Source of the DNA: Escherichia virus TH58 | Sequence record: MT446423.1 | Direction: 5' to 3' (one strand) | DNA: 64,000 bases | Shown: piece after piece, positions 5,696 to 60,027 of the stretch | Layout: the number at the start of each line of letters is the position of its first letter | How positions within the stretch are numbered: position 1 is the first letter of the stretch | The notes under the pieces: model-generated | Database searches by the model: none | What the model was told of the DNA's origin: nothing | What the model saw: the letters and a program-made list of their open reading frames with translations, nothing else | Translations under genes and position numbers: made by a program

Positions 5696-5769
5696 GGCCC
5701 TGTAGCTCAATGGTTAGCAGCAGTCCCCTCATAAGGGAAAGGTTACCAGTTCGAATCTGGTCTGGGCCA
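5696..5769 (+). tRNA. tRNA with CAU anticodon (Met or Ile-type)
   Basis: Hand-folded cloverleaf: acceptor GGCCCTG/CTGGGCC (one T-T mismatch), T-arm ACCAG-TTCGAATC-TGGT, anticodon loop CTCATAA; no encoded CCA. Confidence 0.65.
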
Positions 5770-5775
5770 TATATT

Positions 5776-5852
<77 letters not shown>

Positions 5853-49455: not shown

Positions 49456-52167
49456 ATGAAAGAATTTTACCTAACGGTTGAACAGATTGGTGATTCAATT
49501 TTTGAACGTTACATCGATTCTAATGGCTGTGAACGTACTCGTGAAGTAGAGTATAAGCCATCATTGTTTGCACATTGTCCTGAAAGTCAGGCCACGAAAT
49601 ATTTTGATATCTACGGTAAACCTTGTACTCGTAAACTGTTCGCTAACATGCGTGATGCCTCCCAATGGATTAAACGCATGGAAGATATCGGACTTGAAGC
49701 ACTTGGTATGGACGATTTCAAATTGGCGTATTTGTCTGACACTTATAACTATGAAATCAAATACGACCATACAAAAATTCGTGTGGCTAACTTCGACATC
49801 GAAGTAACATCTCCGGATGGGTTCCCTGAGCCGTCGCAAGCAAAACATCCGATTGATGCTATCACCCATTATGACTCAATTGACGACAGGTTCTACGTAT
49901 TTGATCTATTGAATTCTCCATATGGTAATGTGGAAGAATGGTCTATCGAAATTGCAGCTAAGCTTCAAGAACAAGGTGGTGATGAAGTTCCATCCGAAAT
50001 TATCGACAAAATCGTTTATATGCCGTTCGATAACGAAAAAGAATTGTTGATGGAATATCTCAACTTCTGGCAACAGAAAACTCCTGTCATTTTGACTGGA
50101 TGGAACGTTGAGTCATTTGATATTCCATATGTGTATAACCGAATCAAGAATATTTTTGGCGAATCTACTGCGAAACGTTTATCACCACATCGTAAAACTC
50201 GTGTTAAAGTTATCGAAAACATGTATGGTTCTCGTGAAATCATTACATTGTTCGGTATCTCTGTTCTTGATTACATTGACCTTTACAAAAAATTCTCTTT
50301 TACCAATCAACCGTCGTATTCTCTGGATTACATTTCAGAATTTGAATTGAACGTTGGTAAACTGAAATATGACGGCCCTATTTCTAAGCTTCGTGAAAGC
50401 AATCACCAACGATATATTTCTTATAACATTATCGACGTGTATCGTGTATTGCAAATTGATGCTAAGCGTCAGTTCATCAACTTGAGTTTGGACATGGGTT
50501 ATTATGCTAAGATACAGATTCAATCTGTGTTTAGTCCAATTAAAACATGGGATGCTATTATTTTTAATAGCCTTAAAGAGCAGAACAAGGTGATTCCACA
50601 AGGTCGTTCTCATCCGGTTCAACCTTATCCTGGCGCTTTTGTTAAGGAACCTATTCCAAATCGATACAAATATGTAATGAGTTTCGACCTTACATCTCTG
50701 TATCCAAGTATTATTCGCCAAGTGAATATTAGCCCAGAAACAATAGCAGGAACGTTTAAAGTAGCTCCATTGCATGATTATATTAACGCTGTTGCTGAAC
50801 GTCCTTCTGATGTGTACAGTTGTTCTCCTAACGGCATGATGTATTATAAAGACCGTGATGGTGTAGTTCCAACTGAAATCACTAAAGTCTTTAATCAACG
50901 TAAAGAACATAAAGGTTACATGCTTGCAGCTCAACGTAATGGTGAAATAATTAAAGAGGCATTGCATAATCCTAATCTTTCTGTCGACGAACCATTAGAT
51001 GTTGATTATCGTTTCGACTTCAGTGATGAGATTAAAGAAAAGATTAAAAAGTTGTCTGCTAAATCTCTTAATGAAATGTTGTTTAGAGCTCAACGTACTG
51101 AAGTTGCAGGTATGACTGCCCAAATTAACCGTAAATTGCTTATCAACTCACTTTATGGTGCACTTGGCAACGTTTGGTTCCGTTATTATGATTTGCGTAA
51201 TGCTACCGCAATCACAACATTTGGTCAAATGGCTTTACAGTGGATTGAACGTAAAGTTAATGAATATCTGAATGAAGTTTGTGGTACAGAAGGTGAAGCT
51301 TTCGTTCTATATGGTGATACAGACTCTATTTACGTATCTGCTGATAAAATTATCGATAAGGTTGGTGAATCTAAATTCCGTGATACCAACCATTGGGTAG
51401 ACTTCTTAGATAAGTTTGCACGTGAACGTATGGAACCAGCTATTGATAGAGGTTTCCGTGAAATGTGTGAATACATGAACAATAAACAACACTTAATGTT
51501 CATGGACCGAGAAGCTATCGCTGGTCCTCCGCTCGGTTCTAAAGGTATTGGTGGATTCTGGACTGGTAAGAAACGTTATGCATTAAACGTGTGGGACATG
51601 GAAGGTACTCGTTACGCTGAGCCTAAACTCAAAATAATGGGTCTAGAGACTCAGAAATCTTCGACTCCTAAAGCAGTACAGAAAGCTCTTAAAGAATGTA
51701 TTCGTCGTATGCTTCAAGAAGGTGAAGAATCATTACAAGAATATTTTAAAGAGTTTGAAAAAGAATTCCGTCAATTGAATTATATTAGCATCGCGTCGGT
51801 ATCTTCTGCGAATAACATTGCTAAATATGAAGTAGGTGGATTCCCGGGTCCTAAATGCCCGTTCCATATTCGTGGAATTCTGACGTATAACCGGGCTATC
51901 AAAGGTAATATCGATGCACCGCAAGTTGTAGAAGGTGAAAAAGTATATGTTCTGCCTTTACGTGAAGGAAACCCATTCGGTGATAAATGTATCGCATGGC
52001 CTTCTGGTACTGAAATCACAGATTTAATTAAAGACGACGTACTTCATTGGATGGACTACACTGTTCTCCTTGAGAAGACATTTATTAAACCACTTGAAGG
52101 ATTCACATCAGCAGCGAAACTCGATTACGAGAAGAAAGCATCTCTGTTCGATATGTTCGATTTTTGA
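49456..52167 (+). CDS. 43: DNA polymerase gp43 (family B)
   Basis: 903 aa; exonuclease motifs FDIEV and YNIIDV, polymerase motifs DLTSLYPSII, KILINSLYGALG, YGDTDS; N-terminus RB69-like from memory. Confidence 0.95.
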   Translation: MKEFYLTVEQIGDSIFERYIDSNGCERTREVEYKPSLFAHCPESQATKYFDIYGKPCTRKLFANMRDASQWIKRMEDIGLEALGMDDFKLAYLSDTYNYEIKYDHTKIRVANFDIEVTSPDGFPEPSQAKHPIDAITHYDSIDDRFYVFDLLNSPYGNVEEWSIEIAAKLQEQGGDEVPSEIIDKIVYMPFDNEKELLMEYLNFWQQKTPVILTGWNVESFDIPYVYNRIKNIFGESTAKRLSPHRKTRVKVIENMYGSREIITLFGISVLDYIDLYKKFSFTNQPSYSLDYISEFELNVGKLKYDGPISKLRESNHQRYISYNIIDVYRVLQIDAKRQFINLSLDMGYYAKIQIQSVFSPIKTWDAIIFNSLKEQNKVIPQGRSHPVQPYPGAFVKEPIPNRYKYVMSFDLTSLYPSIIRQVNISPETIAGTFKVAPLHDYINAVAERPSDVYSCSPNGMMYYKDRDGVVPTEITKVFNQRKEHKGYMLAAQRNGEIIKEALHNPNLSVDEPLDVDYRFDFSDEIKEKIKKLSAKSLNEMLFRAQRTEVAGMTAQINRKLLINSLYGALGNVWFRYYDLRNATAITTFGQMALQWIERKVNEYLNEVCGTEGEAFVLYGDTDSIYVSADKIIDKVGESKFRDTNHWVDFLDKFARERMEPAIDRGFREMCEYMNNKQHLMFMDREAIAGPPLGSKGIGGFWTGKKRYALNVWDMEGTRYAEPKLKIMGLETQKSSTPKAVQKALKECIRRMLQEGEESLQEYFKEFEKEFRQLNYISIASVSSANNIAKYEVGGFPGPKCPFHIRGILTYNRAIKGNIDAPQVVEGEKVYVLPLREGNPFGDKCIAWPSGTEITDLIKDDVLHWMDYTVLLEKTFIKPLEGFTSAAKLDYEKKASLFDMFDF

Positions 52168-52207: not shown

Positions 52208-52843
52208 ATGAAAACTACTCCTATTACTATCGCTATTGACGCAATCATAAAACAAGCTTCTTCTTTGGCCGCTATGGCCAAAGTAATTAGTCAAAACCCT
52301 GCTCGTTATAATGCTATTCTAGAAACTCTTCGACGCCCAGGACTTAGTAATTATGAAAGTCGTGTAATTATTACAGGTGTTGGTAAGAACGCTAATATCG
52401 CAACTAAAGCTTCTGAGACTTTTGCTTCATTAGGTATTCCTAGCATGTATTTGAACACCGGGCATTATTCTCACGGCGATGCAGGATTCATTGCGCCTAA
52501 TGATGTGTTGATTCATATTAGTCGTTCTGGTAAAACTGAAGAAATGATAGGCGTGGCTAAGCATCTTAAAATGATTCGTCCGAACGTCAAACAGATTCTG
52601 TTGCATTGTAACCCAGACATTCCACAAGAAAATGAAGCCCTTTTTGATTACTCTTTCTGTACAGGCATCGCAGTAGAGGTTGATGAGAATTCTCTGGCTC
52701 CGACTATGTCCACTACATTGTTGTTAGCGCTTATCGATACGTTTGCTATCAACCTTTCGTCTGAACGTGGATTTACCTCTAATGACTTCCTTAAGTTCCA
52801 CCCTGGTGGTGCACTAGGTGCCATGTTACGAGGCGAACAATGA
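52208..52843 (+). CDS. SIS-domain sugar-phosphate isomerase (KdsD/GutQ-like, probable arabinose-5-phosphate isomerase)
   Basis: ITGVGKNANIATKASETFASLGIPSMYLNTGHYSHGDAGF...HISRSGKTEE...HPGGALG follows the KdsD SIS pattern; 211 aa, no CBS domains. Confidence 0.65.
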   Translation: MKTTPITIAIDAIIKQASSLAAMAKVISQNPARYNAILETLRRPGLSNYESRVIITGVGKNANIATKASETFASLGIPSMYLNTGHYSHGDAGFIAPNDVLIHISRSGKTEEMIGVAKHLKMIRPNVKQILLHCNPDIPQENEALFDYSFCTGIAVEVDENSLAPTMSTTLLLALIDTFAINLSSERGFTSNDFLKFHPGGALGAMLRGEQ

Positions 52844-53024: not shown

Positions 53025-54710
53025 ATGAAAAAAGCTGTTATTCTTGGTGCTGGACTGGCAACTCGTTTGTATCCAATAACGCATCATATTCCTAAGGTGC
53101 TTGTTAACTATAAACAAGACACTATTCTGAGCAATTTGTATACAATTTATTCTGACCTTGGCGCAGATGAAATTATTGTAGTAGTTCATTCAAAATTTGC
53201 TGAAACCGTTCGAGCTTATTGTGAGCAAGAAGGGTTCAATGTGACTATTCGTACAGTTGATGAAGCATATGGTTCTGCTTATGCTCTTGCTAAATTGCAC
53301 AAAGATTTAGACGGTCATAATGTAATTGTTAACTGGTGTGATATTATTCCCGATTTTGGTTCATGGTCTTGGAATGTTAACGCAATCTATGTTAAGGGTG
53401 ACGAATGTCGATATAATTTCGACGGTGAAAATATCACTAACGTAGGTTCAACAGGTGGTAATGTTGTAGGAATTTATCAGTTCAAAGACTGGGAATTCTA
53501 TATGGGTTCTACTGATGAGGAAATTCATGAATACTGCAAAGGACGTGATTTCGTAGAATTCCTTTACGGCAGCGCATTCAATAAATCAGAGCTTATGAAT
53601 CTAATTGATTTAGGTGATATGCCTAAACTTGAAAAGGCTCATGAAGTTCGTGAACTTAATCGTAGTTTTAATGCGGTTGAAATTGGTGAAGAAACTGTAA
53701 CTAAATTCGCATTAACCGAACAGGGCCGATCTCTTCAGAAAGATGAGATTTCATGGTATCTTAAAGTGAAATCAGATTCAGTTCCTCAGTTAGTTTCTGT
53801 TAATGAAAATAACTTTGAAATGGAACGCATTAAAGGTAAGCCGGCATTTGAATATATTAAATCCAAATCGAGTCTTGCTCGTCCACAAATTGTTGATGCA
53901 ATTTTAGATGCACTGAAATTCAGCACAGACACTTATTTTGTAAGTCCTGAAACTGTTCGTCGTGATTTCACTAAAGAATTCTATACTAAAGTCATCGATC
54001 GTTGTGAAAGTATTCAACCATTGATTGATTCATTTGGTAAAATCACACATGTGAACTACACTAAGATTGGACGTCTGAAGCCAATGTTGAAACAAGCTTT
54101 AGAACACCTTATTCGTTATCATAACCGTTCTCAGGGACAGTACTCTGTTATTCATGGTGACCCGAACTTCAGTAATACTATGATTACTGATAATGGTGAA
54201 GTAAAGTTTATCGACCCTCGTGGATATTTTGGTGAAACCAAGATTTACGGGCCAAAATTGTATGACGAAGCTAAAGTGCTTTACGCTGTTTCAGGTTATG
54301 ATGAATTCAACGCCAATCCGACCTGGGGACAGTTTACTATTGATGAAATAACCTGTAATGTGACTATTAACATCAATCCATTAGTTTACAAATATGGAAA
54401 GATGAGTTCGTTTAACGTGTATCATCATTTGGCAGTGGCAATTATCTGGATTGCATTAGGTGGTTATTTCAAGAATAATCCACTTAAAGCGGTAGCCGCA
54501 TATTATAAAGGTATGGAACTTCTGACTAAGCAATTACGTAACATGGGCCGTGTACTTCAGGACGGCACTATTAGTTATGATGTAGCAGAACCTGTAACGG
54601 CTACTCTGATTACAAAAAATCCTGGTAAATGGGTACTAACTGATAAAGAAACTGGTGTTTCTTATCGTCCAATCGGTGGCGATAACACTCATCAATGGGA
54701 ACGAATCTAA
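53025..54710 (+). CDS. Bifunctional sugar-1-phosphate nucleotidyltransferase / sugar kinase
   Basis: N-terminal MKKAVILGAGLATRLYPIT (NDP-sugar pyrophosphorylase G-loop); C-terminal HGDPNFSN and FIDPRG (APH/choline-kinase-like motifs); 561 aa. Confidence 0.65.
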   Translation: MKKAVILGAGLATRLYPITHHIPKVLVNYKQDTILSNLYTIYSDLGADEIIVVVHSKFAETVRAYCEQEGFNVTIRTVDEAYGSAYALAKLHKDLDGHNVIVNWCDIIPDFGSWSWNVNAIYVKGDECRYNFDGENITNVGSTGGNVVGIYQFKDWEFYMGSTDEEIHEYCKGRDFVEFLYGSAFNKSELMNLIDLGDMPKLEKAHEVRELNRSFNAVEIGEETVTKFALTEQGRSLQKDEISWYLKVKSDSVPQLVSVNENNFEMERIKGKPAFEYIKSKSSLARPQIVDAILDALKFSTDTYFVSPETVRRDFTKEFYTKVIDRCESIQPLIDSFGKITHVNYTKIGRLKPMLKQALEHLIRYHNRSQGQYSVIHGDPNFSNTMITDNGEVKFIDPRGYFGETKIYGPKLYDEAKVLYAVSGYDEFNANPTWGQFTIDEITCNVTININPLVYKYGKMSSFNVYHHLAVAIIWIALGGYFKNNPLKAVAAYYKGMELLTKQLRNMGRVLQDGTISYDVAEPVTATLITKNPGKWVLTDKETGVSYRPIGGDNTHQWERI

Positions 54711-55096
54711 TGCACCGTGTAAAAAACATGCTTAATCTTTGTTTTGACGTCGATGATTGTATAACAGAGTGGAATAACAATCGTGATTACGTGAACTTCA
54801 AACCGGACGTCGAAATGGTGTCTGCCATTAATGCCCTGTATGATGCAGGGCATACCATAACGCTTTACACTGCTCGCGGTATGAAGTCAGTCGGTCCTGG
54901 TCGTATAGCAATTGACATTCTCCCAAGTCTGATTCAGAACTTGGCAAACATTGGATTGAAGTACCATAATTTGCTAACACATAAACCAGTATATGATTGG
55001 ATTATCGACGACAAAGCTATGCGTCCTGACGAATTCAAAGCTCTTATGAATAAAGGCGAATTCGAAACATTTAAATCATATAAACCGAATCTATAA
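54710..55096 (+). CDS. Small HAD-superfamily phosphatase
   Basis: Motif I LCFDVDDCIT, motif II TLYTARG, motif IV WIIDDK; 128 aa. Confidence 0.55.
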   Translation: MHRVKNMLNLCFDVDDCITEWNNNRDYVNFKPDVEMVSAINALYDAGHTITLYTARGMKSVGPGRIAIDILPSLIQNLANIGLKYHNLLTHKPVYDWIIDDKAMRPDEFKALMNKGEFETFKSYKPNL

Positions 55097-55150: not shown

Positions 55151-56311
55151 ATGAATACCTTTAAAATCGGAACGAATTTTGATTTAGCTCTTCTTGATAA
55201 AATCGTAGAGCTCAATAAAACTTATCCTAATAGCTTGATAAACGAAGTATACGGCTCTACAAGAGAAATGGCTTTTGTAGCAGCCAGACCTGATTTTAGG
55301 CTTCCTGACGTTGACAAAAAGATGTTAGAAGATTACGTTAAACGTTGTAACGAATTAGGTATTTGCTTTAACTATACACTCAACACGATAAATCCTGGTT
55401 CAAAAAGAGAACTAGTTGAGTGGAAGAAGAAAGCTATTCAGGATTATGTTCAGTATCTTTGGTCAATAGGTGTATGGCGTATTACTATCGCTAACCCTGT
55501 TGTTATGGAAATTGTTCGTGAAGTCAATAAAGACATTGAGATTGAAGTTTCAACAATTCTACATGTCGATGCTGTAACTCAAATCAAATACTTGCATGAC
55601 CAATATAATATCAAAAAGGTCTGCTGTGGAATTCACAAGAACCGTTCAGTTTCTTTCCTGAAGCGTGCAGCAGAGTTTTGCAATAAGAACAATATAATAT
55701 TTGAAGTTCTTGTAAATGAGTTCTGTTCTAATGCTGGTAAAGGGTATACAACACATTGTAGTTATCGTGACTCTTGCTATATTTTCCATAGCACCGATGT
55801 TACAGTAGATGATGCCAAATCCTTAAATGGATATCCAATGCAACACTGTATTAAAGCTCGTGATACAGATCCATTTAACTGGTTGAGAACTCGTTTTGTT
55901 CGTCCTCAAGATTTGAAACTTTATAATGATATTGGTATCACTCAATTCAAAGTTTCAGGACGTACAGGTAGCACAGACTACATTTTGAAAGTTCTTGAAG
56001 CATACGCTTCTGAAAAGTTTGAAGGTAATTTGTTAGAACTGTGGAAGCCTTTAGAGACTATTTTCACTCTTGAAAACGAAACTGAGTTTTCACATACAGT
56101 AAATATTGAAACCTCTTTGTTAGATGGCTTTTTAGAAAAAAGGTGGTTCAAACATCCAGATTTCGATTGTGCTAATGAAATCTGCGGGACGACGTGTACA
56201 TATTGTGAAAGATATTATAAACGTCAGTTATCTAAAAATGGGTTATCAGAAAACTCTATATCTATTATTGATATAACTAACTCTGACGACGCTTTGAGGT
56301 ACCCAGAATGA
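55151..56311 (+). CDS. Uncharacterised protein with C-terminal 4-Cys cluster (possible metal or Fe-S site); weak U32-family resemblance
   Basis: C-terminal CANEICGTTCTYC (C-x4-C-x3-C-x2-C); GITQFKVSGR resembles a U32-family K-I-E-G-R segment; the U32 signature itself is not matched; 386 aa. Confidence 0.35.
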   Translation: MNTFKIGTNFDLALLDKIVELNKTYPNSLINEVYGSTREMAFVAARPDFRLPDVDKKMLEDYVKRCNELGICFNYTLNTINPGSKRELVEWKKKAIQDYVQYLWSIGVWRITIANPVVMEIVREVNKDIEIEVSTILHVDAVTQIKYLHDQYNIKKVCCGIHKNRSVSFLKRAAEFCNKNNIIFEVLVNEFCSNAGKGYTTHCSYRDSCYIFHSTDVTVDDAKSLNGYPMQHCIKARDTDPFNWLRTRFVRPQDLKLYNDIGITQFKVSGRTGSTDYILKVLEAYASEKFEGNLLELWKPLETIFTLENETEFSHTVNIETSLLDGFLEKRWFKHPDFDCANEICGTTCTYCERYYKRQLSKNGLSENSISIIDITNSDDALRYPE

Positions 56312-56457
56312 TTTCTAGAAAAACTTTTAACCACCAACTTAATGAAGAGATTTTGACTACGAAAATTAACAGCAACGAACAAATTCTTAAAAAGGCCCTT
56401 ATTGGCCTGTTTGAAACTAAAGCGGCTAAAGTGATTAAAGAACCTGTTCAATTGTAA
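56308..56457 (+). CDS. Small ORF (49 aa) ending at an in-frame TAA followed by 30 more open codons
   Basis: ATGA overlap with upstream gene; frame stays open after the TAA at 56455-56457 until 56546. Confidence 0.3.
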   Translation: MISRKTFNHQLNEEILTTKINSNEQILKKALIGLFETKAAKVIKEPVQL

Positions 56458-56589
56458 TACTACGCTGATGCATTTCTTCATAGTGTTCTTGGAAATATCG
56501 ATGCTGAAGCTTTACGTTATATCAACACCGCTAAGAAATTCAAATAAGCTTTATGAATTGAGTATATAATAAATTGTATTGAGGTAAAC

Positions 56590-57306
56590 ATGGGAAAACA
56601 TAACACAATGAAATATATTAAAGCCGCAGATTTTCAATCCGCATTTAAAGCTGTCAATCGTGAAATTTTAGAAAACCCGGAATTCGTTACTGATTCTCGT
56701 ATTGGACGTTGTAATGAAATTGGGTCTATGACAGTAGTTGTTGACACTCCATCATCATTCAAAATGACCGACCCACGTATTAACCGCATCTCTTATGAAT
56801 ATGCTGAAGATTTCTGGAAGTTTATGATTTCTGGCGGTACCGACGCAGAAGAAGCATTTAAGGCATATCCTAATGTCGCTAAATTTATTTCTAAACCAAA
56901 ATCAGATGCTTTGCCTGCGAACTTCAACACTTTCTATGGTCCACGAATTGCGGCCCAGTTACCAGCTCTTCTCAAAGAACTTAAAGAGAAACCTAATTCA
57001 CGAAGAGTTGTGTTCCAAATTCTAGAAAGTTCAGATCAGGCTTTGCTTGATTCGGACGAAACACTTGAATATCCATGTACTGACTCAGTGACTTATTATA
57101 TTCGTGATGGTAAGCTTTATACCCACTGTCATATGCGTTCTCAGAACTGTGCTGTTGTTATGCAGTTGGATTTTTATCTCCAAGGAAAATTACTTCATTA
57201 TATCGCTAACGAATGTGGTGTAGAAGTTGGTGATTATACTCATACCATGGTAAGTGCCCATGTGTTTGAACGTGATTTTGATTATGTTAAAGGATTCCTT
57301 GACTAA
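56590..57306 (+). CDS. Thymidylate-synthase-fold pyrimidine hydroxymethylase (divergent gp42 analog)
   Basis: Catalytic-Cys region EYPCTDSVTYYIRDGKLYTHCHMRSQN parallels TS and dCMP hydroxymethylase; downstream Asp (MQLDF) at the specificity position; 238 aa. Confidence 0.6.
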   Translation: MGKHNTMKYIKAADFQSAFKAVNREILENPEFVTDSRIGRCNEIGSMTVVVDTPSSFKMTDPRINRISYEYAEDFWKFMISGGTDAEEAFKAYPNVAKFISKPKSDALPANFNTFYGPRIAAQLPALLKELKEKPNSRRVVFQILESSDQALLDSDETLEYPCTDSVTYYIRDGKLYTHCHMRSQNCAVVMQLDFYLQGKLLHYIANECGVEVGDYTHTMVSAHVFERDFDYVKGFLD

Positions 57307-58205
57307 TGGCTATTTTCCGCGTACCTATCTTGAGTATGCGGTCTTATGAAACTGGTCAGTATGCTATCCTTAAGGATGGTAACTTCCAACTTCATTTGCA
57401 CCGTGCTAATCCAGGTGATGTGATTACATATCCACGTAATGCATCTGATATTAAAGAATGTGAACGTCTTTTCCCAGAATTTAAGTTTGTTCCATTATGG
57501 TATAAAGATAACGCGTATAACACTCGTAAATATTTCTGGTCTGAAAATGAATTTGTGGTTGATTCATTAATTGCTTATTATGATTGTGATTTTCTAATCA
57601 CAGATATCACTGGATATGACGGCGCTTTTGATGTGGAATTCAATTTCAATATCACTGCAGACCCTAATAAACCGCGTTTTTATATTGACGAATTCTTAAA
57701 AACCGACATGTTGTCGGTTAATCGTTCACTTCAAACTACTGTGTTGAATGAACGTCAAAAGGAAGTGCTGGTTAACGCTGGTGCGGATGGTAATAAGATT
57801 ATCGTAACGCAGAAAGTTATACGTCCTTCCATCATGCAGCGTCTTGTAGGTGATTTGGCTCCTATTCATCTAGATGGTATTTTTCATCCATTTCGAATTA
57901 GTGACCCGTGCTATCGTTTTGAACAAGTGGTTGAATGTGCAATTCAATTAGGTCAACCGCTTTATATAACCGATCCAAATAATAGCTTCGACAGAAATAA
58001 GTATCCTGAAGAAGCGCTGATTCGAATTTTTAAACCAACTAAAACTGAGTACTATCAAATTCTTAAAGGTCGGCCGAAGATTCAATATTTCGAAAATCCT
58101 GAAGAAGTATTCCATCCAGGTCTTGGCGAGTTCATCTACTTTAACGCTTTAATTTCTTCGCCGTATAATATACCTAAATATGAAGATGTCGTAATCGAGG
58201 AATAA
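57306..58205 (+). CDS. Uncharacterised protein (candidate DNA sugar transferase by context)
   Basis: 299 aa; no motif recognised; sits between the hydroxymethylase and a kinase where T4 has beta-gt. Confidence 0.4.
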   Translation: MAIFRVPILSMRSYETGQYAILKDGNFQLHLHRANPGDVITYPRNASDIKECERLFPEFKFVPLWYKDNAYNTRKYFWSENEFVVDSLIAYYDCDFLITDITGYDGAFDVEFNFNITADPNKPRFYIDEFLKTDMLSVNRSLQTTVLNERQKEVLVNAGADGNKIIVTQKVIRPSIMQRLVGDLAPIHLDGIFHPFRISDPCYRFEQVVECAIQLGQPLYITDPNNSFDRNKYPEEALIRIFKPTKTEYYQILKGRPKIQYFENPEEVFHPGLGEFIYFNALISSPYNIPKYEDVVIEE

Positions 58206-58206
58206 A

Positions 58207-58755
58207 ATGGCTAAAATTATTTTAGTAGATGGCCCGGATAATGCTGGTAAAACAACTTTCATTAATGACATAATGGAAATTAGTGAAAGATATGTAAAGA
58301 TTGATTTCCCTAAACGAACAGTTGACGGACGTTTCGATGTTAAGTCTCGAAATGAAGTTGGTTGTTTCGAAACGATGTTGAATTATTTAGATCCTACTAA
58401 GATTTATCTGTTAGACCGTGGATATATTAGTAACTGGGTTTATGGACGTATTCGTCAAGATGCTGACTCGGTTCTTGACGTTTATGAACAGGATTATGTT
58501 CGTCTTTGCCAAAACCACGATGTGTTCACAATTATTTTAACACGTAACGAAATGACTGAAAGTTTTGAAGACGACCTTATTACTTTGTCTTCATTCGGTT
58601 TTAATACAGTAATTTCATATTTTGAAGAGTTTGCAATCCATAACGAAATCCAAACGTATCAATTACTTAATCATGATGGTGCTAACAAAGTTATAGGATT
58701 TAATGCAAGCGAACGTAATAATTTGATTACAGAAATTATCAAATGGGCTCGTTAA
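58207..58755 (+). CDS. P-loop nucleoside/nucleotide kinase-like protein
   Basis: Walker A ILVDGPDNAGKTT and LLDRGYIS (dNK/TMPK-like DR(Y/S) motif); 182 aa. Confidence 0.5.
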   Translation: MAKIILVDGPDNAGKTTFINDIMEISERYVKIDFPKRTVDGRFDVKSRNEVGCFETMLNYLDPTKIYLLDRGYISNWVYGRIRQDADSVLDVYEQDYVRLCQNHDVFTIILTRNEMTESFEDDLITLSSFGFNTVISYFEEFAIHNEIQTYQLLNHDGANKVIGFNASERNNLITEIIKWAR

Positions 58756-58854: not shown

Positions 58855-60027
58855 ATGTCTGATTTAAAATCTCGTCTGATTAAAGCTTCTACTTCTAAAA
58901 TGACTGCAGACTTGACTAAGTCTAAGTTGTTTAATAATCGTGATGAAGTCCCTACTCGTATTCCGATGTTGAATATTGCATTAGGTGGTGCACTGAATGC
59001 TGGGTTGCAATCAGGCTTAACTATTTTTGCTGCTCCTTCTAAACACTTTAAAACGTTGTTTGGACTGACCATGGTTGCAGCATATATGAAGAAATATAAA
59101 GATGCAATTTGTTTGTTCTATGATTCAGAATTTGGTGCTTCAGAATCTTATTTTCGTTCAATGGGTGTTGATTTAGACCGTGTAGTTCATACTCCTATTC
59201 AATCTGTCGAACAACTTAAAGTTGATATGACTAATCAGCTTGACGCGATTGAACGCGGTGATAAAGTTATTATCTTTATCGATTCAATCGGTAATACTGC
59301 ATCTAAGAAAGAAACTGAAGATGCATTGAACGAGAAAGTCGTAGGTGATATGTCTCGTGCTAAGGCACTTAAATCTCTTTTCCGCATTGTGACTCCTTAT
59401 CTGACTATTAAAGATATTCCGTGTGTTGCAATTAACCATACCGCAATGGAAATCGGTGGATTGTATCCTAAAGAGATTATGGGTGGTGGTACAGGTATTC
59501 TTTACTCTGCTAACACTGTATTCTTTATCTCTAAACGTCAGGTTAAAGAAGGTACAGAATTGACGGGTTATGACTTCACGTTGAAAGCAGAAAAATCTCG
59601 CACCGTTAAAGAAAAATCTACTTTCCCAATCACGGTTAATTTTGATGGCGGTATTGACCCATTCAGTGGCTTGTTAGAAATGGCAACTGAAATTGGTTTT
59701 GTAGTTAAGCCTAAAGCTGGTTGGTATGCTCGTGAATTCCTTGACGAAGAAACAGGCGAAATGATTCGTGAAGAGAAATCGTGGCGTGCTAAAGCTACTG
59801 ATTGTGTAGAATTCTGGGGACCATTGTTTAAACACAAACCTTTCCGAGATGCAATTGAAACTAAATATAAACTAGGTGCTATCTCTTCTATTAAAGAAGT
59901 TGATGATGCTGTTAACGACCTTATTAATTGCAAAGCAACAACTAAAGTTCCGGTTAAAACTTCTGATGCTCCGTCTGCAGCAGATATTGAAAACGACCTT
60001 GACGAAATGGAAGATTTCGATGAATAA
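58855..60027 (+). CDS. uvsX: RecA-like recombinase UvsX
   Basis: Walker A region and RecA core; 390 aa. Confidence 0.9.
   Translation: MSDLKSRLIKASTSKMTADLTKSKLFNNRDEVPTRIPMLNIALGGALNAGLQSGLTIFAAPSKHFKTLFGLTMVAAYMKKYKDAICLFYDSEFGASESYFRSMGVDLDRVVHTPIQSVEQLKVDMTNQLDAIERGDKVIIFIDSIGNTASKKETEDALNEKVVGDMSRAKALKSLFRIVTPYLTIKDIPCVAINHTAMEIGGLYPKEIMGGGTGILYSANTVFFISKRQVKEGTELTGYDFTLKAEKSRTVKEKSTFPITVNFDGGIDPFSGLLEMATEIGFVVKPKAGWYAREFLDEETGEMIREEKSWRAKATDCVEFWGPLFKHKPFRDAIETKYKLGAISSIKEVDDAVNDLINCKATTKVPVKTSDAPSAADIENDLDEMEDFDE

What the first reader, a model, noticed from the sequence alone, without database searches (positions are those of the whole stretch)
56590..57306. Divergent thymidylate-synthase-fold hydroxymethylase instead of a canonical gp42
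The protein keeps the catalytic-Cys context (PCTDSVTYYIRDGKL...HMRSQN) and an Asp at the base-specificity position, but outside these segments it differs strongly from the T4 dCMP hydroxymethylase sequence as I recall it. It may be a distinct lineage of pyrimidine hydroxymethylase, possibly with altered substrate.
Basis: partly seen in the sequence, partly recalled or inferred. Interest (0 to 1): 0.6.

Follow-up and report, generated by a model that had tools for sequence, protein, structure and literature searches.

The report
Phage dCMP 5-hydroxylase with thymidylate-synthase fold
This gene encodes a thymidylate-synthase-like enzyme that puts a hydroxyl group, not a hydroxymethyl group, on dCMP so that an RB69-type phage can sugar-coat its cytosines; the enzyme is remarkable, but it was characterised and published in 2025-2026.

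Summary
The ORF at 56590..57306 (+, 238 aa) is real.

The protein is 237/238 identical to RB69 gp48 and 236/238 identical to the phage HY126 enzyme solved as PDB 9IQC/9IR2. Lee et al. (NAR 2026, PMC13326640), who also cite He et al. (Nat Chem Biol 2026), showed that these enzymes are "5hodCMP synthases". They convert dCMP to 5-hydroxy-dCMP using O2 and a flavin (FMN), not methylene-tetrahydrofolate.

The window protein has the published diagnostic signature: catalytic Cys163, Glu160, Asp194 and Asn186 (ThyA D169N). It sits in the complete RB69-type arabinosylation cluster.

The nucleotide substrate is unchanged; the co-substrate and the chemistry differ.

Novelty: already known.

One side lead may be new. 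The neighbouring peptidase-U32 gene belongs to the RlhA/TrhP family of prephenate-dependent pyrimidine C5-hydroxylases. In at least seven related phage genera it is paired with a chorismate mutase gene, which suggests a second, O2-independent route to 5-hydroxycytosine.

The parts
56590..57306 (+). TS-fold dCMP 5-hydroxylase (5hodCMP synthase), the ortholog of RB69 gp48 and of the HY126 enzyme (PDB 9IQC). Key residues: Cys163 (nucleophile), Glu160 (ThyA L143), Asn186 (ThyA D169), Asp194 (ThyA N177).
   Evidence: function taken from PMC13326640.
56548..56570 (+). Possible MotA-type middle promoter: GCTTTA at 56548..56553, then 11 nt, then TATAAT at 56565..56570. A GAGG Shine-Dalgarno sequence follows at 56582..56585.
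   Evidence: Read directly from the sequence. The sequence is identical in RB69. The sigma-70 scan finds no -35/-10 pair on the + strand here. The MotA-box consensus is recalled from my own knowledge and was not tested.
57306..58205 (+). DNA arabinosyltransferase 1 (RB69 gp46:47). Its ATG overlaps the TAA of the hydroxylase by one base.
   Evidence: It matches RB69 at 99-100% identity in two pieces, because the reference ORF is split. It hits PHROG 3891. The function is predicted in PMC13326640, Table 1.
58207..58755 (+). Thymidylate-kinase-like nucleotide kinase (RB69 gp45). Its role in the pathway is untested.
   Evidence: 98.9% identical to RB69 gp45. Hits PHROG 761 at 5e-45. Listed in Table 1 of PMC13326640.
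55151..56311 (+). Peptidase-U32-family protein (RB69 gp50). Its function is unassigned in the literature I could read. Here I propose it as a prephenate-dependent, O2-independent C5-hydroxylase.
   Evidence: Pfam PF01136 gives 6.3e-11, 42.4 bits against a cut-off of 22.4. hhalign against E. coli TrhP/RlhA/UbiU/UbiV gives probability 92.9%, E = 3.8e-7. It is linked to a chorismate mutase gene in relatives.
56308..56547 (+). Homolog of RB69 gp49 (79 aa, unknown function), interrupted in the window by an in-frame TAA at 56455..56457 (codon 50).
   Evidence: The homolog is also truncated in DCP548 (by a frameshift) and in HY126.
54710..55096 (+). HAD-type sugar phosphatase (RB69 gp51, analogous to HY126 AfhF), which converts Araf-1,5-P2 to Araf-1-P.
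   Evidence: 98.5% identical to RB69 gp51. Hits NCBIfam TIGR01689 at 4e-13. Role taken from PMC13326640.
53025..54710 (+). Bifunctional sugar kinase and UDP-arabinose pyrophosphorylase (RB69 gp52:53, analogous to HY126 AfhE). It is a single ORF in the window.
   Evidence: Pfam NTP_transferase plus kinase-like hits. 98-99.5% identical to the two RB69 pieces. Role taken from PMC13326640.
52208..52843 (+). Arabinose-5-phosphate isomerase (RB69 gp55).
   Evidence: 100% identical to RB69 gp55. Hits NCBIfam KpsF/GutQ at 2e-32.
49456..52167 (+). DNA polymerase gp43, which incorporates 5hodCTP into DNA.
   Evidence: 99.7% identical to RB69 gp43. Its role is inferred from the pathway described in PMC13326640.

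Best explanation
The gene encodes a flavin- and O2-dependent dCMP 5-hydroxylase (5hodCMP synthase) built on the thymidylate-synthase fold.

Mechanism, with the inferred steps marked:
1. As in every TS-family enzyme, the Cys163 thiolate adds to C6 of dCMP and makes C5 nucleophilic (inferred from the conserved Cys).
2. Asp194 reads the cytosine N3/N4 edge (inferred from ThyA N177D and T4 D179).
3. C5 does not attack the methylene of CH2-THF. It attacks an oxygen delivered by a reduced flavin plus O2, presumably as a flavin C4a-hydroperoxide held in the remodelled folate pocket. The remodelling is Asn186 for Asp, Val190 for Gly, and, less certainly aligned, Ala for Trp80 and Phe for Glu58.
4. Elimination of the Cys releases 5-hydroxy-dCMP.

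Downstream pathway: 5hodCMP is phosphorylated by the phage dNMP kinase, which lies outside the window, and by host NDP kinase. It is then incorporated by gp43. The 5-OH in DNA is arabinosylated by the transferase encoded immediately downstream, using UDP-arabinofuranose made by the three genes upstream. The resulting DNA resists restriction.
For: Identity to characterised enzymes:
- 237/238 identity to RB69 gp48.
- 236/238 identity to PDB 9IQC/9IR2. That PDB sequence is 100% identical to Escherichia phage HY126.

Published experiments on RB69 gp48 (PMC13326640):
- Co-expression of gp48 with the dNMP kinase puts 5hodC (243 Da, confirmed by co-injection with an authentic standard) into E. coli DNA.
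- 18O2 labelling gives a 245 Da product.
- The purified protein is yellow, absorbs at 370 and 455 nm, and releases FMN.
- The paper cites He et al. for a flavin-bound HY126 crystal structure and an in vitro reconstitution.

Diagnostic D169N signature: I checked it independently. All seven sampled members of the clade have Asn at this position, including the Pootjesviridae phage Atu_ph04. The three gp42-type enzymes, which sit next to glucosyltransferases or belong to hmC phages, keep Asp, as does ThyA.

Gene context: it is the RB69 arabinosylation cluster at 98-100% protein identity.
Against: No activity was measured for this exact allele, which differs from RB69 gp48 by S17T. Flavin binding cannot be tested with sequence tools. 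My single-sequence AlphaFold model was unusable, with pLDDT 41. The chemical steps (Cys addition, flavin hydroperoxide) are inferred. I could not read He et al. or Mahler et al., so details of the structure come second-hand. The N-terminal half aligns weakly to ThyA, so the W80 and E58 equivalences are tentative.
Confidence: 0.95

Rival explanations
1. The protein is a divergent folate-dependent dCMP hydroxymethylase, functionally a gp42, that makes 5hmdCMP, which is then arabinosylated. That was the 2018 model for RB69.
For: It has the TS fold, the catalytic Cys, Asp at the N177 position and an acidic residue at the L143 position, as gp42 does. It occupies the gp42 map position between gp43 and uvsX. 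Thomas et al. 2018 counted it as a dCMP hydroxymethylase homolog. Many GenBank records annotate it that way.
Against: The 99.6%-identical RB69 gp48 gives 5hodC, not 5hmdC, in the same assay in which T4 gp42 gives 5hmdC. The oxygen comes from 18O2. NMR and MS of RB69 DNA show arabinose joined to C5 through an ether oxygen with no methylene. The folate-site Asp169 is replaced by Asn. The protein is only 25% identical to gp42.
Confidence: 0.02
2. It is an ordinary thymidylate synthase (dUMP to dTMP), as many database records name it.
For: It hits Pfam PF00303 and several NCBIfam 'thymidylate synthase' models. Dozens of phage records annotate it as 'thymidylate synthase'.
Against: Every NCBIfam TS equivalog score is far below its cut-off, for example 69 against 174.6 bits and 50 against 325 bits. 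The dUMP-specifying Asn177 is Asp, the water-excluding Leu143 is Glu, and Asp169 is Asn. Experimentally the product is 5hodC.
Confidence: 0.01
3. It is a hydroxylase with a different preferred nucleotide, for example dUMP, CMP or dCTP, or it acts at the DNA level.
For: Its best full-length PDB relative outside the clade is MilA, a CMP hydroxymethylase, at E = 1.2e-11 over residues 14-237. Substrate range has not been tested on this allele.
Against: Asp194 specifies cytosine. RB69 gp48 needs the dNMP kinase for robust incorporation of 5hodC, and RB69 dNMP kinase converts 5hodCMP to 5hodCDP. This places the reaction at the deoxy-mononucleotide level.
Confidence: 0.02

Closest known systems
RB69 gp48 (RB69p048, NP_861738.1), a 5hodCMP synthase (Lee et al., NAR 2026, PMC13326640)
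   Same: 237/238 residues are identical. The length, the map position and the neighbouring genes are the same, and all signature residues are identical.
   Different: There is one conservative substitution, Ser17 here against Thr in RB69. In the RB69 reference two neighbouring genes are split by sequencing errors, whereas they are intact here.
Escherichia phage HY126 enzyme, PDB 9IQC / 9IR2 / 9IQU (deposited as 'Thymidylate synthase'; He et al., Nat Chem Biol 2026, as cited in PMC13326640)
   Same: 236/238 residues are identical. The PDB sequence equals HY126 PP658200.1. It is reported to carry a flavin in the crystal and to use O2 in vitro.
   Different: There are two surface-type substitutions, E30Q and E88K. 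I could not read the primary paper.
T4 gp42, dCMP hydroxymethylase (folate-dependent)
   Same: It shares the TS fold, the catalytic Cys, Asp at the cytosine-specificity position, an acidic residue at the ThyA L143 position, a similar length (246 aa) and the same genome neighbourhood (gp43 ... uvsX).
   Different: Identity is 25%. gp42 keeps Asp169, Gly173, Trp80 and Glu58, whereas the window protein has Asn, Val, Ala and Phe. gp42 transfers a one-carbon unit from CH2-THF and is followed by a glucosyltransferase. This enzyme inserts oxygen from O2 through a flavin and is followed by an arabinosyltransferase.
MilA, CMP 5-hydroxymethylase of mildiomycin biosynthesis (PDB 5JNH, 5B6D)
   Same: It is the best full-length structural relative outside the clade, at E about 1e-11 over residues 14-237. 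According to PMC13326640 it has Asp at both the N177 and the L143 positions.
   Different: MilA acts on the ribonucleotide CMP and is a folate-dependent hydroxymethylase.
TrhO/TrhP dual tRNA U34 hydroxylation and RlhA (ho5C2501) in E. coli (Sakai et al. 2019, PMC6599085)
   Same: The chemistry is the same, C5-hydroxylation of a pyrimidine. There is an O2-dependent route and a prephenate-dependent peptidase-U32 route. The window cluster likewise holds an O2-dependent hydroxylase next to a U32 protein.
   Different: The O2-dependent enzymes are unrelated: a rhodanese-family protein against a TS-fold protein. The substrates are RNA against a deoxynucleotide. The phage U32 role is only a hypothesis.

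Membership tests
5hodCMP synthase clade of the TS superfamily (RB69 gp48 / HY126 / DLP3 gp80) | Thymidylate-synthase fold or homology | tested here: met
   Pfam PF00303 gives 2.4e-15. PHROG 160 gives 6.7e-47. PDB TS and MilA chains match at about 1e-11.
5hodCMP synthase clade of the TS superfamily (RB69 gp48 / HY126 / DLP3 gp80) | Catalytic Cys equivalent to ThyA C146 | tested here: met
   Cys163 aligns with ThyA C146 and T4 C148.
5hodCMP synthase clade of the TS superfamily (RB69 gp48 / HY126 / DLP3 gp80) | Asn at the ThyA D169 position (the published diagnostic D169N) | tested here: met
   Asn186 occupies this position. All 7 sampled clade members have Asn, whereas T4, Aeromonas phage 31, AB2I3 and ThyA have Asp. 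The criterion comes from PMC13326640.
5hodCMP synthase clade of the TS superfamily (RB69 gp48 / HY126 / DLP3 gp80) | Asp at ThyA N177 (dCMP specificity) and an acidic residue at L143 | tested here: met
   Asp194 and Glu160 occupy these positions.
5hodCMP synthase clade of the TS superfamily (RB69 gp48 / HY126 / DLP3 gp80) | Close identity to an experimentally validated member | tested here: met
   237/238 identical to RB69 gp48. 236/238 identical to PDB 9IQC, which is HY126.
5hodCMP synthase clade of the TS superfamily (RB69 gp48 / HY126 / DLP3 gp80) | Embedded in a cluster with NDP-arabinose synthesis genes and a DNA glycosyltransferase | tested here: met
   The arabinose-5-phosphate isomerase, kinase/pyrophosphorylase, HAD phosphatase, glycosyltransferase and kinase genes are all present at 98-100% identity to RB69.
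5hodCMP synthase clade of the TS superfamily (RB69 gp48 / HY126 / DLP3 gp80) | Binds a flavin (FMN) and hydroxylates dCMP with O2 | not testable with these tools
   Only the literature on the 99%-identical orthologs addresses this. My AlphaFold model was too poor to use.
T4 gp42-type dCMP hydroxymethylase | Folate-site residues retained (ThyA D169, G173, W80, E58) | tested here: not met
   The window protein has Asn, Val, Ala and Phe at these positions. All three gp42-type proteins keep Asp, Gly, Trp and Glu. The W80 and E58 columns lie in the weakly aligned N-terminal half.
T4 gp42-type dCMP hydroxymethylase | Recognisable sequence similarity to gp42 beyond the superfamily level | tested here: not met
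   Identity is 25% over 218 aa. That is no closer than to ThyA or MilA, which match at about 1e-11.
T4 gp42-type dCMP hydroxymethylase | Partnered with hmC glucosyltransferases | tested here: not met
   There is no beta-gt homolog in the window. The neighbouring gene is the RB69-type arabinosyltransferase.
Thymidylate synthase ThyA (EC 2.1.1.45) | Passes curated equivalog thresholds and has Asn177 | tested here: not met
   All NCBIfam TS models score far below their cut-offs, the best being 69.2 against 174.55 bits. Position 177 is Asp.
Peptidase-U32 prephenate-dependent hydroxylases (RlhA/TrhP/UbiU/UbiV): the neighbouring gene at 55151..56311 | U32 domain with the essential Glu-Cys-Cys motif (TrhP E162, C170, C177) | tested here: inconclusive
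   The Pfam U32 score is above the gathering cut-off. hhalign (probability 92.9%) pairs E185, C203 and C209 with the motif, and all three are invariant in 8 phage homologs. MAFFT pairs a different Cys and misses C177. BLASTP against the E. coli paralogs gives nothing significant.
Peptidase-U32 prephenate-dependent hydroxylases (RlhA/TrhP/UbiU/UbiV): the neighbouring gene at 55151..56311 | Functional dependence on prephenate | not testable with these tools
   The only evidence is indirect. A chorismate mutase gene lies near U32 in Kanagawa-, Marfa-, Winkler-, Teguna-, Gualtar- and Mosugukvirus and in Thanatos. There is no chorismate mutase gene in this window.

The most novel reading that the evidence does not exclude
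The cluster may encode two independent routes to 5-hydroxycytosine. The known one is the O2/flavin-dependent TS-fold enzyme at 56590..57306. The proposed second one is an O2-independent, prephenate-dependent route carried out by the adjacent peptidase-U32 protein at 55151..56311. This would let phages of facultative anaerobes keep modifying their DNA in the anoxic gut, and it would be a DNA-precursor counterpart of the TrhO/TrhP dual tRNA pathway.

Support:
- The phage U32 protein is homologous to RlhA, TrhP and UbiU/V, and the Glu-Cys-Cys motif is plausibly kept.
- A chorismate mutase gene with conserved catalytic residues stays next to or near U32 in at least 7 genera, even where gene order is rearranged, as in Thanatos.
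- The U32 gene was not found in the Acinetobacter phage locus examined and is absent from the published DLP3 cluster. Acinetobacter is a strict aerobe, and these phages still make arabinosyl-5hoC.

Caveats:
- JS98, an E. coli phage, lacks U32.
- The Mosigvirus cluster examined here has no chorismate mutase gene and would have to rely on host PheA/TyrA.
- I could not read He et al. 2026 or Mahler et al. 2025, which may already address this gene.
Probability: 0.3. Interest if true: 0.65.

Novelty: already known. Interest (0 to 1): 0.3.

Why it matters
The enzyme shows that the thymidylate-synthase scaffold, long regarded as a one-carbon transferase, can swap folate for a flavin and insert oxygen. 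It founds a whole family of O-glycosylated 5-hydroxycytosine DNA modifications that protect phages from restriction enzymes, CRISPR and other defences. All of this was published in 2025-2026, so the window adds one more Mosigvirus allele and no new biology.

There are two practical points:
- More than 150 GenBank phage records still label this gene 'thymidylate synthase', 'dCMP hydroxymethylase' or 'hypothetical protein'.
- The unassigned U32 and chorismate mutase genes next to it may hide an anaerobic hydroxylation route that is worth testing.

Tried and rejected
1. Structure route. A single-sequence AlphaFold2 model had mean pLDDT 40.9, so I ran no fold search. I judged a 13-CPU-hour homolog search for an alignment unnecessary, because a 99%-identical crystal structure already exists.
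2. Primary literature. He et al. 2026 (PMID 41922540) and Mahler et al. 2025 (PMID 40578341) are not held. A text search for '9IQC' found nothing relevant. I tied the PDB entry to HY126 by sequence identity instead.
3. I first thought RB69 gp49, the small ORF between U32 and the hydroxylase, was a decayed chorismate mutase. I rejected this. It has no Pfam hit and no BLASTP similarity to the Entb_45 chorismate mutase. Its true homologs are a separate small ORF that coexists with the chorismate mutase in Yersinia and Serratia phages.
4. A search for close U32 relatives in 185,579 bacterial and archaeal genomes found none. phmmer of U32 against the PDB also found none.
5. The sigma-70 promoter scan found no + strand site upstream of the gene. 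The MotA-type reading rests on direct reading of the sequence and on recalled consensus only.
6. Literature searches linking U32, prephenate or chorismate mutase to phage 5hoC found nothing in the held library.
Full report
**Observation.** The window has an ATG-to-TAA ORF of 238 aa at exactly 56590..57306 on the + strand. A GAGG ribosome-binding site precedes it. Its stop codon overlaps by one base the ATG of the next gene at 57306. The protein matches Pfam Thymidylat_synt (PF00303) at E = 2.4e-15, but only over its C-terminal half, residues 122-235. It matches PHROG 160 'thymidylate synthase' at 6.7e-47. Against T4 gp42 (fetched) BLASTP gives only 54/218 identities (25%) with 28 gaps. No T4 gp42 chain appears among the 60 PDB matches listed. 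An alignment with E. coli ThyA (fetched) and T4 gp42 puts Cys163 on the catalytic ThyA C146 / T4 C148, and Asp194 on ThyA N177 / T4 D179. The ORF is the only TS-fold gene in the window, and no beta-glucosyltransferase homolog is present.

**What it is.** The protein is 237/238 identical to RB69 gp48 (RB69p048), differing only by S17T. It is 236/238 identical to PDB entries 9IQC/9IR2, and 9IQU is an N-terminally shortened form. A query with the PDB sequence returns Escherichia phage HY126 (PP658200.1) at 100% identity. At the DNA level the gene is 95-99% identical to 153 phage records, all Mosigvirus (RB69-like). The last 24 kb of the window are about 97.5% identical to RB69, HY126 and relatives.

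Lee et al. (NAR 2026, PMC13326640) showed several things about RB69 gp48:
- When co-expressed with the phage dNMP kinase it puts 5-hydroxy-2'-deoxycytidine into E. coli DNA. The product has a mass of 243 Da and its identity was confirmed by co-injection with a standard.
- 18O2 labelling shifts the product to 245 Da.
- T4 gp42 in the same assay gives 5hmdC instead.
- The purified enzyme is yellow, absorbs at 370 and 455 nm and releases FMN.

The same paper cites He et al. (Nat Chem Biol 2026) for a crystal structure of the HY126 homolog with a flavin cofactor, and for an in vitro reconstitution confirming O2 as the oxygen source. RB69 DNA carries arabinose linked directly to C5 of cytosine through an ether oxygen derived from 5-hydroxycytosine. 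The gene is therefore a dCMP 5-hydroxylase ('5hodCMP synthase') and not a hydroxymethylase.

**Independent check of the signature.** The paper proposes Asn at the ThyA D169 position as diagnostic, together with N177D and L143E. I fetched TS-like genes from nine other phages and aligned them with T4 gp42 and ThyA.
- The hydroxylase-type sequences are the window protein, RB69, Entb_45, JS98, Thanatos-1, Lazarus and the 34%-identical Agrobacterium phage Atu_ph04. All have Asn at D169 and Val at G173. All have Glu at L143, Asp at N177, and the Cys.
- The gp42-type sequences are T4, Aeromonas phage 31 and Acinetobacter phage AB2I3. They keep Asp169 and Gly173, as does ThyA.
- In the less securely aligned N-terminal half, the hydroxylase clade has Ala or Ser at W80 and Phe at E58, where gp42 and ThyA keep Trp and Glu.
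- The signature tracks gene context. Acinetobacter phage Lazarus (Asn) sits among arabinose-5-phosphate isomerase and pyrophosphorylase genes. Acinetobacter phage AB2I3 (Asp) sits next to glucosyltransferases.
- The replaced residues are, from established ThyA structural knowledge, contacts of the folate cofactor. This fits a switch from folate to flavin, but the link is an inference.

**Context.** The neighbours are the RB69 arabinosylation cluster at 98-100% protein identity:

| Window coordinates | Gene product | RB69 equivalent |
|---|---|---|
| 52208..52843 | arabinose-5-phosphate isomerase | gp55 |
| 53025..54710 | bifunctional kinase / UDP-sugar pyrophosphorylase | gp52:53 (AfhE-like) |
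| 54710..55096 | HAD phosphatase | gp51 (AfhF-like) |
| 55151..56311 | peptidase-U32 protein | gp50 |
| 56308..56547 | small unknown protein | gp49 |
| 56590..57306 | dCMP 5-hydroxylase | gp48 |
| 57306..58205 | arabinosyltransferase | gp46:47 |
| 58207..58755 | thymidylate-kinase-like protein | gp45 |
| 58855..60027 | UvsX | UvsX |

The two genes that are split in the RB69 reference are single ORFs here, which agrees with the paper's statement that the splits are sequencing errors. The dCTPase (gp56) and the dNMP kinase (gp1 homolog) needed for the pathway lie outside the window.

**Mechanism.** Published work on near-identical orthologs establishes the substrate dCMP, the product 5hodCMP, O2 as the oxygen source and a flavin cofactor. 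The following steps are inferred:
- Cys163 adds to C6 to activate C5, as in all TS-family enzymes.
- Asp194 selects cytosine.
- The activated C5 attacks a flavin-bound oxygen species in the former folate pocket.
- The Cys is eliminated.
- The source of reduced flavin is unknown.

**Comparison and verdict.** The clade is sharply bounded: about 340 phage records are at 60% identity or more, and then there is a drop to about 30%. The 'altered substrate' idea is off in that the nucleotide is unchanged while the second substrate differs. That interpretation matches the 2018 view of RB69, which has since been superseded. The enzyme class is remarkable, but it was published in 2025-2026. The finding is therefore already known, and this window adds only another allele. 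GenBank annotations for this gene remain inconsistent ('thymidylate synthase', 'dCMP hydroxymethylase', 'deoxycytidylate 5-hydroxymethyltransferase', 'hypothetical protein', and in one record 'peptidase').

**Side lead.** The U32 gene (RB69 gp50) is listed only as 'sugar or heterocycle reductase' in the NAR paper and is not discussed there. The peptidase-U32 family contains RlhA (ho5C2501 in 23S rRNA) and TrhP (ho5U34 in tRNA). These are prephenate-dependent, O2-independent pyrimidine C5-hydroxylation factors, and TrhP works alongside the O2-dependent TrhO (Sakai et al. 2019, PMC6599085). My findings are as follows.
1. In Enterobacter phage Entb_45 the gene between U32 and the hydroxylase is a genuine chorismate mutase: Pfam CM_2 gives 2.4e-10 and several NCBIfam chorismate mutase models match.
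2. tblastn with it finds 51 phage records. In the rows whose annotation names the genes, the match overlaps or abuts the hydroxylase and/or U32 gene.
3. The order U32, (small ORF), chorismate mutase, hydroxylase recurs in Marfa-, Winkler-, Teguna-, Gualtar- and Mosugukvirus. In Thanatos-1 the cluster is rearranged, yet U32 and the chorismate mutase remain adjacent.
4. The phage chorismate mutases keep invariant Arg, Arg, Lys, Glu, Ser and Gln with the spacing of the E. coli chorismate mutase catalytic residues. The residue numbering for the E. coli enzyme comes from my own knowledge.
5. A profile of 8 phage U32 proteins matches a profile of E. coli TrhP, RlhA, UbiU and UbiV with hhalign probability 92.9% and E = 3.8e-7 over 202 columns. 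It pairs the invariant E185, C203 and C209 with the essential TrhP E162, C170 and C177. MAFFT gives a different pairing, and BLASTP finds nothing significant.
6. U32 occurs in 221 phage records, all from Enterobacterales or Shewanella hosts among those listed. It is absent from the Lazarus locus (Acinetobacter), from the published DLP3 cluster and from JS98, and DLP3 nevertheless makes arabinosyl-5hoC. It is therefore accessory.

Taken together this suggests, but does not show, an anaerobic prephenate-dependent route to 5hoC. The window itself has no chorismate mutase gene, so in Mosigviruses host chorismate mutases would have to supply prephenate. The small gene after U32 (gp49) is not a chorismate mutase. 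In this window it carries a premature TAA at codon 50. It is also disrupted in DCP548 and HY126, so it is probably dispensable. None of the open-access papers I could search links U32 or chorismate mutase to this pathway. The two key subscription papers could not be read.

**Scores.** Confidence that the gene is the known dCMP 5-hydroxylase is 0.95. Novelty is 'already known'. Interest is 0.3, given for a correct and instructive flag on a striking enzyme that is already described, plus an untested side hypothesis.

Noticed in passing
window 55151..56311 (U32); related loci L005 5614-7022, L007 10151-11541, L015-L019: The peptidase-U32 gene next to the hydroxylase is paired with a bona fide chorismate mutase gene in at least 7 related phage genera. 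The two stay adjacent even where gene order is rearranged, as in Thanatos-1. The U32 family includes the prephenate-dependent C5-hydroxylation factors RlhA and TrhP, which suggests an O2-independent route to 5-hydroxycytosine. U32 is absent from the Acinetobacter phage locus I examined and from JS98.
   Followed up: partly
window 56308..56547, with the stop codon at 56455..56457: The RB69 gp49 homolog (79 aa, PHROG 8601, unknown function) has an in-frame TAA where RB69 has GAA at codon 50. DCP548 has a +1 frameshift, and HY126 annotates only 40 aa. Its homologs in Yersinia and Serratia phages are a separate small ORF lying between U32 and the chorismate mutase.
   Followed up: yes
window 53025..54710 and 57306..58205: Two genes that are split in the RB69 reference genome (gp52/53 and gp46/47) are single intact ORFs here, of 561 and 299 aa. 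This supports the published view that the RB69 splits are sequencing errors.
   Followed up: yes
window 56548..56570: GCTTTA, then 11 nt, then TATAAT lies just upstream of the hydroxylase and overlaps the end of gp49. It resembles a T4 MotA-dependent middle promoter and has no sigma-70 -35 element. The sequence is identical in RB69.
   Followed up: partly
window 56168..56206 (U32 residues 340-352, DCANEICGTTCTYC): The C-terminus of the U32 protein carries a CX4CX3CX2C cysteine cluster that is invariant in 8 phage homologs. It is absent from the E. coli TrhP, UbiU and UbiV sequences aligned, and RlhA showed no equivalent in the aligned columns. It may be an extra Fe-S site, and its last three Cys have radical-SAM-like spacing.
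   Followed up: no
window 58207..58755: A thymidylate-kinase-like gene is present in most of the arabinosyl-5hoC clusters examined. It is usually just after the arabinosyltransferase, but lies upstream of the hydroxylase in JS98 and probably in Marfavirus P545. Its substrate is untested. The published assays used the separate dNMP kinase (RB69 gp159).
   Followed up: no
window 5696..5769 and 5776..5852: Two adjacent tRNA genes are present on the + strand, tRNA-Met(CAT) and tRNA-Arg(TCT). Both ARAGORN and Rfam find them.
   Followed up: no
GenBank records matching window 56590..57306: The same gene is annotated variously as thymidylate synthase, thyA, dCMP hydroxymethylase, deoxycytidylate 5-hydroxymethyltransferase, hypothetical protein and, in one record, peptidase, across more than 150 Mosigvirus genomes. 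None of the records listed reflects the demonstrated hydroxylase activity.
   Followed up: partly
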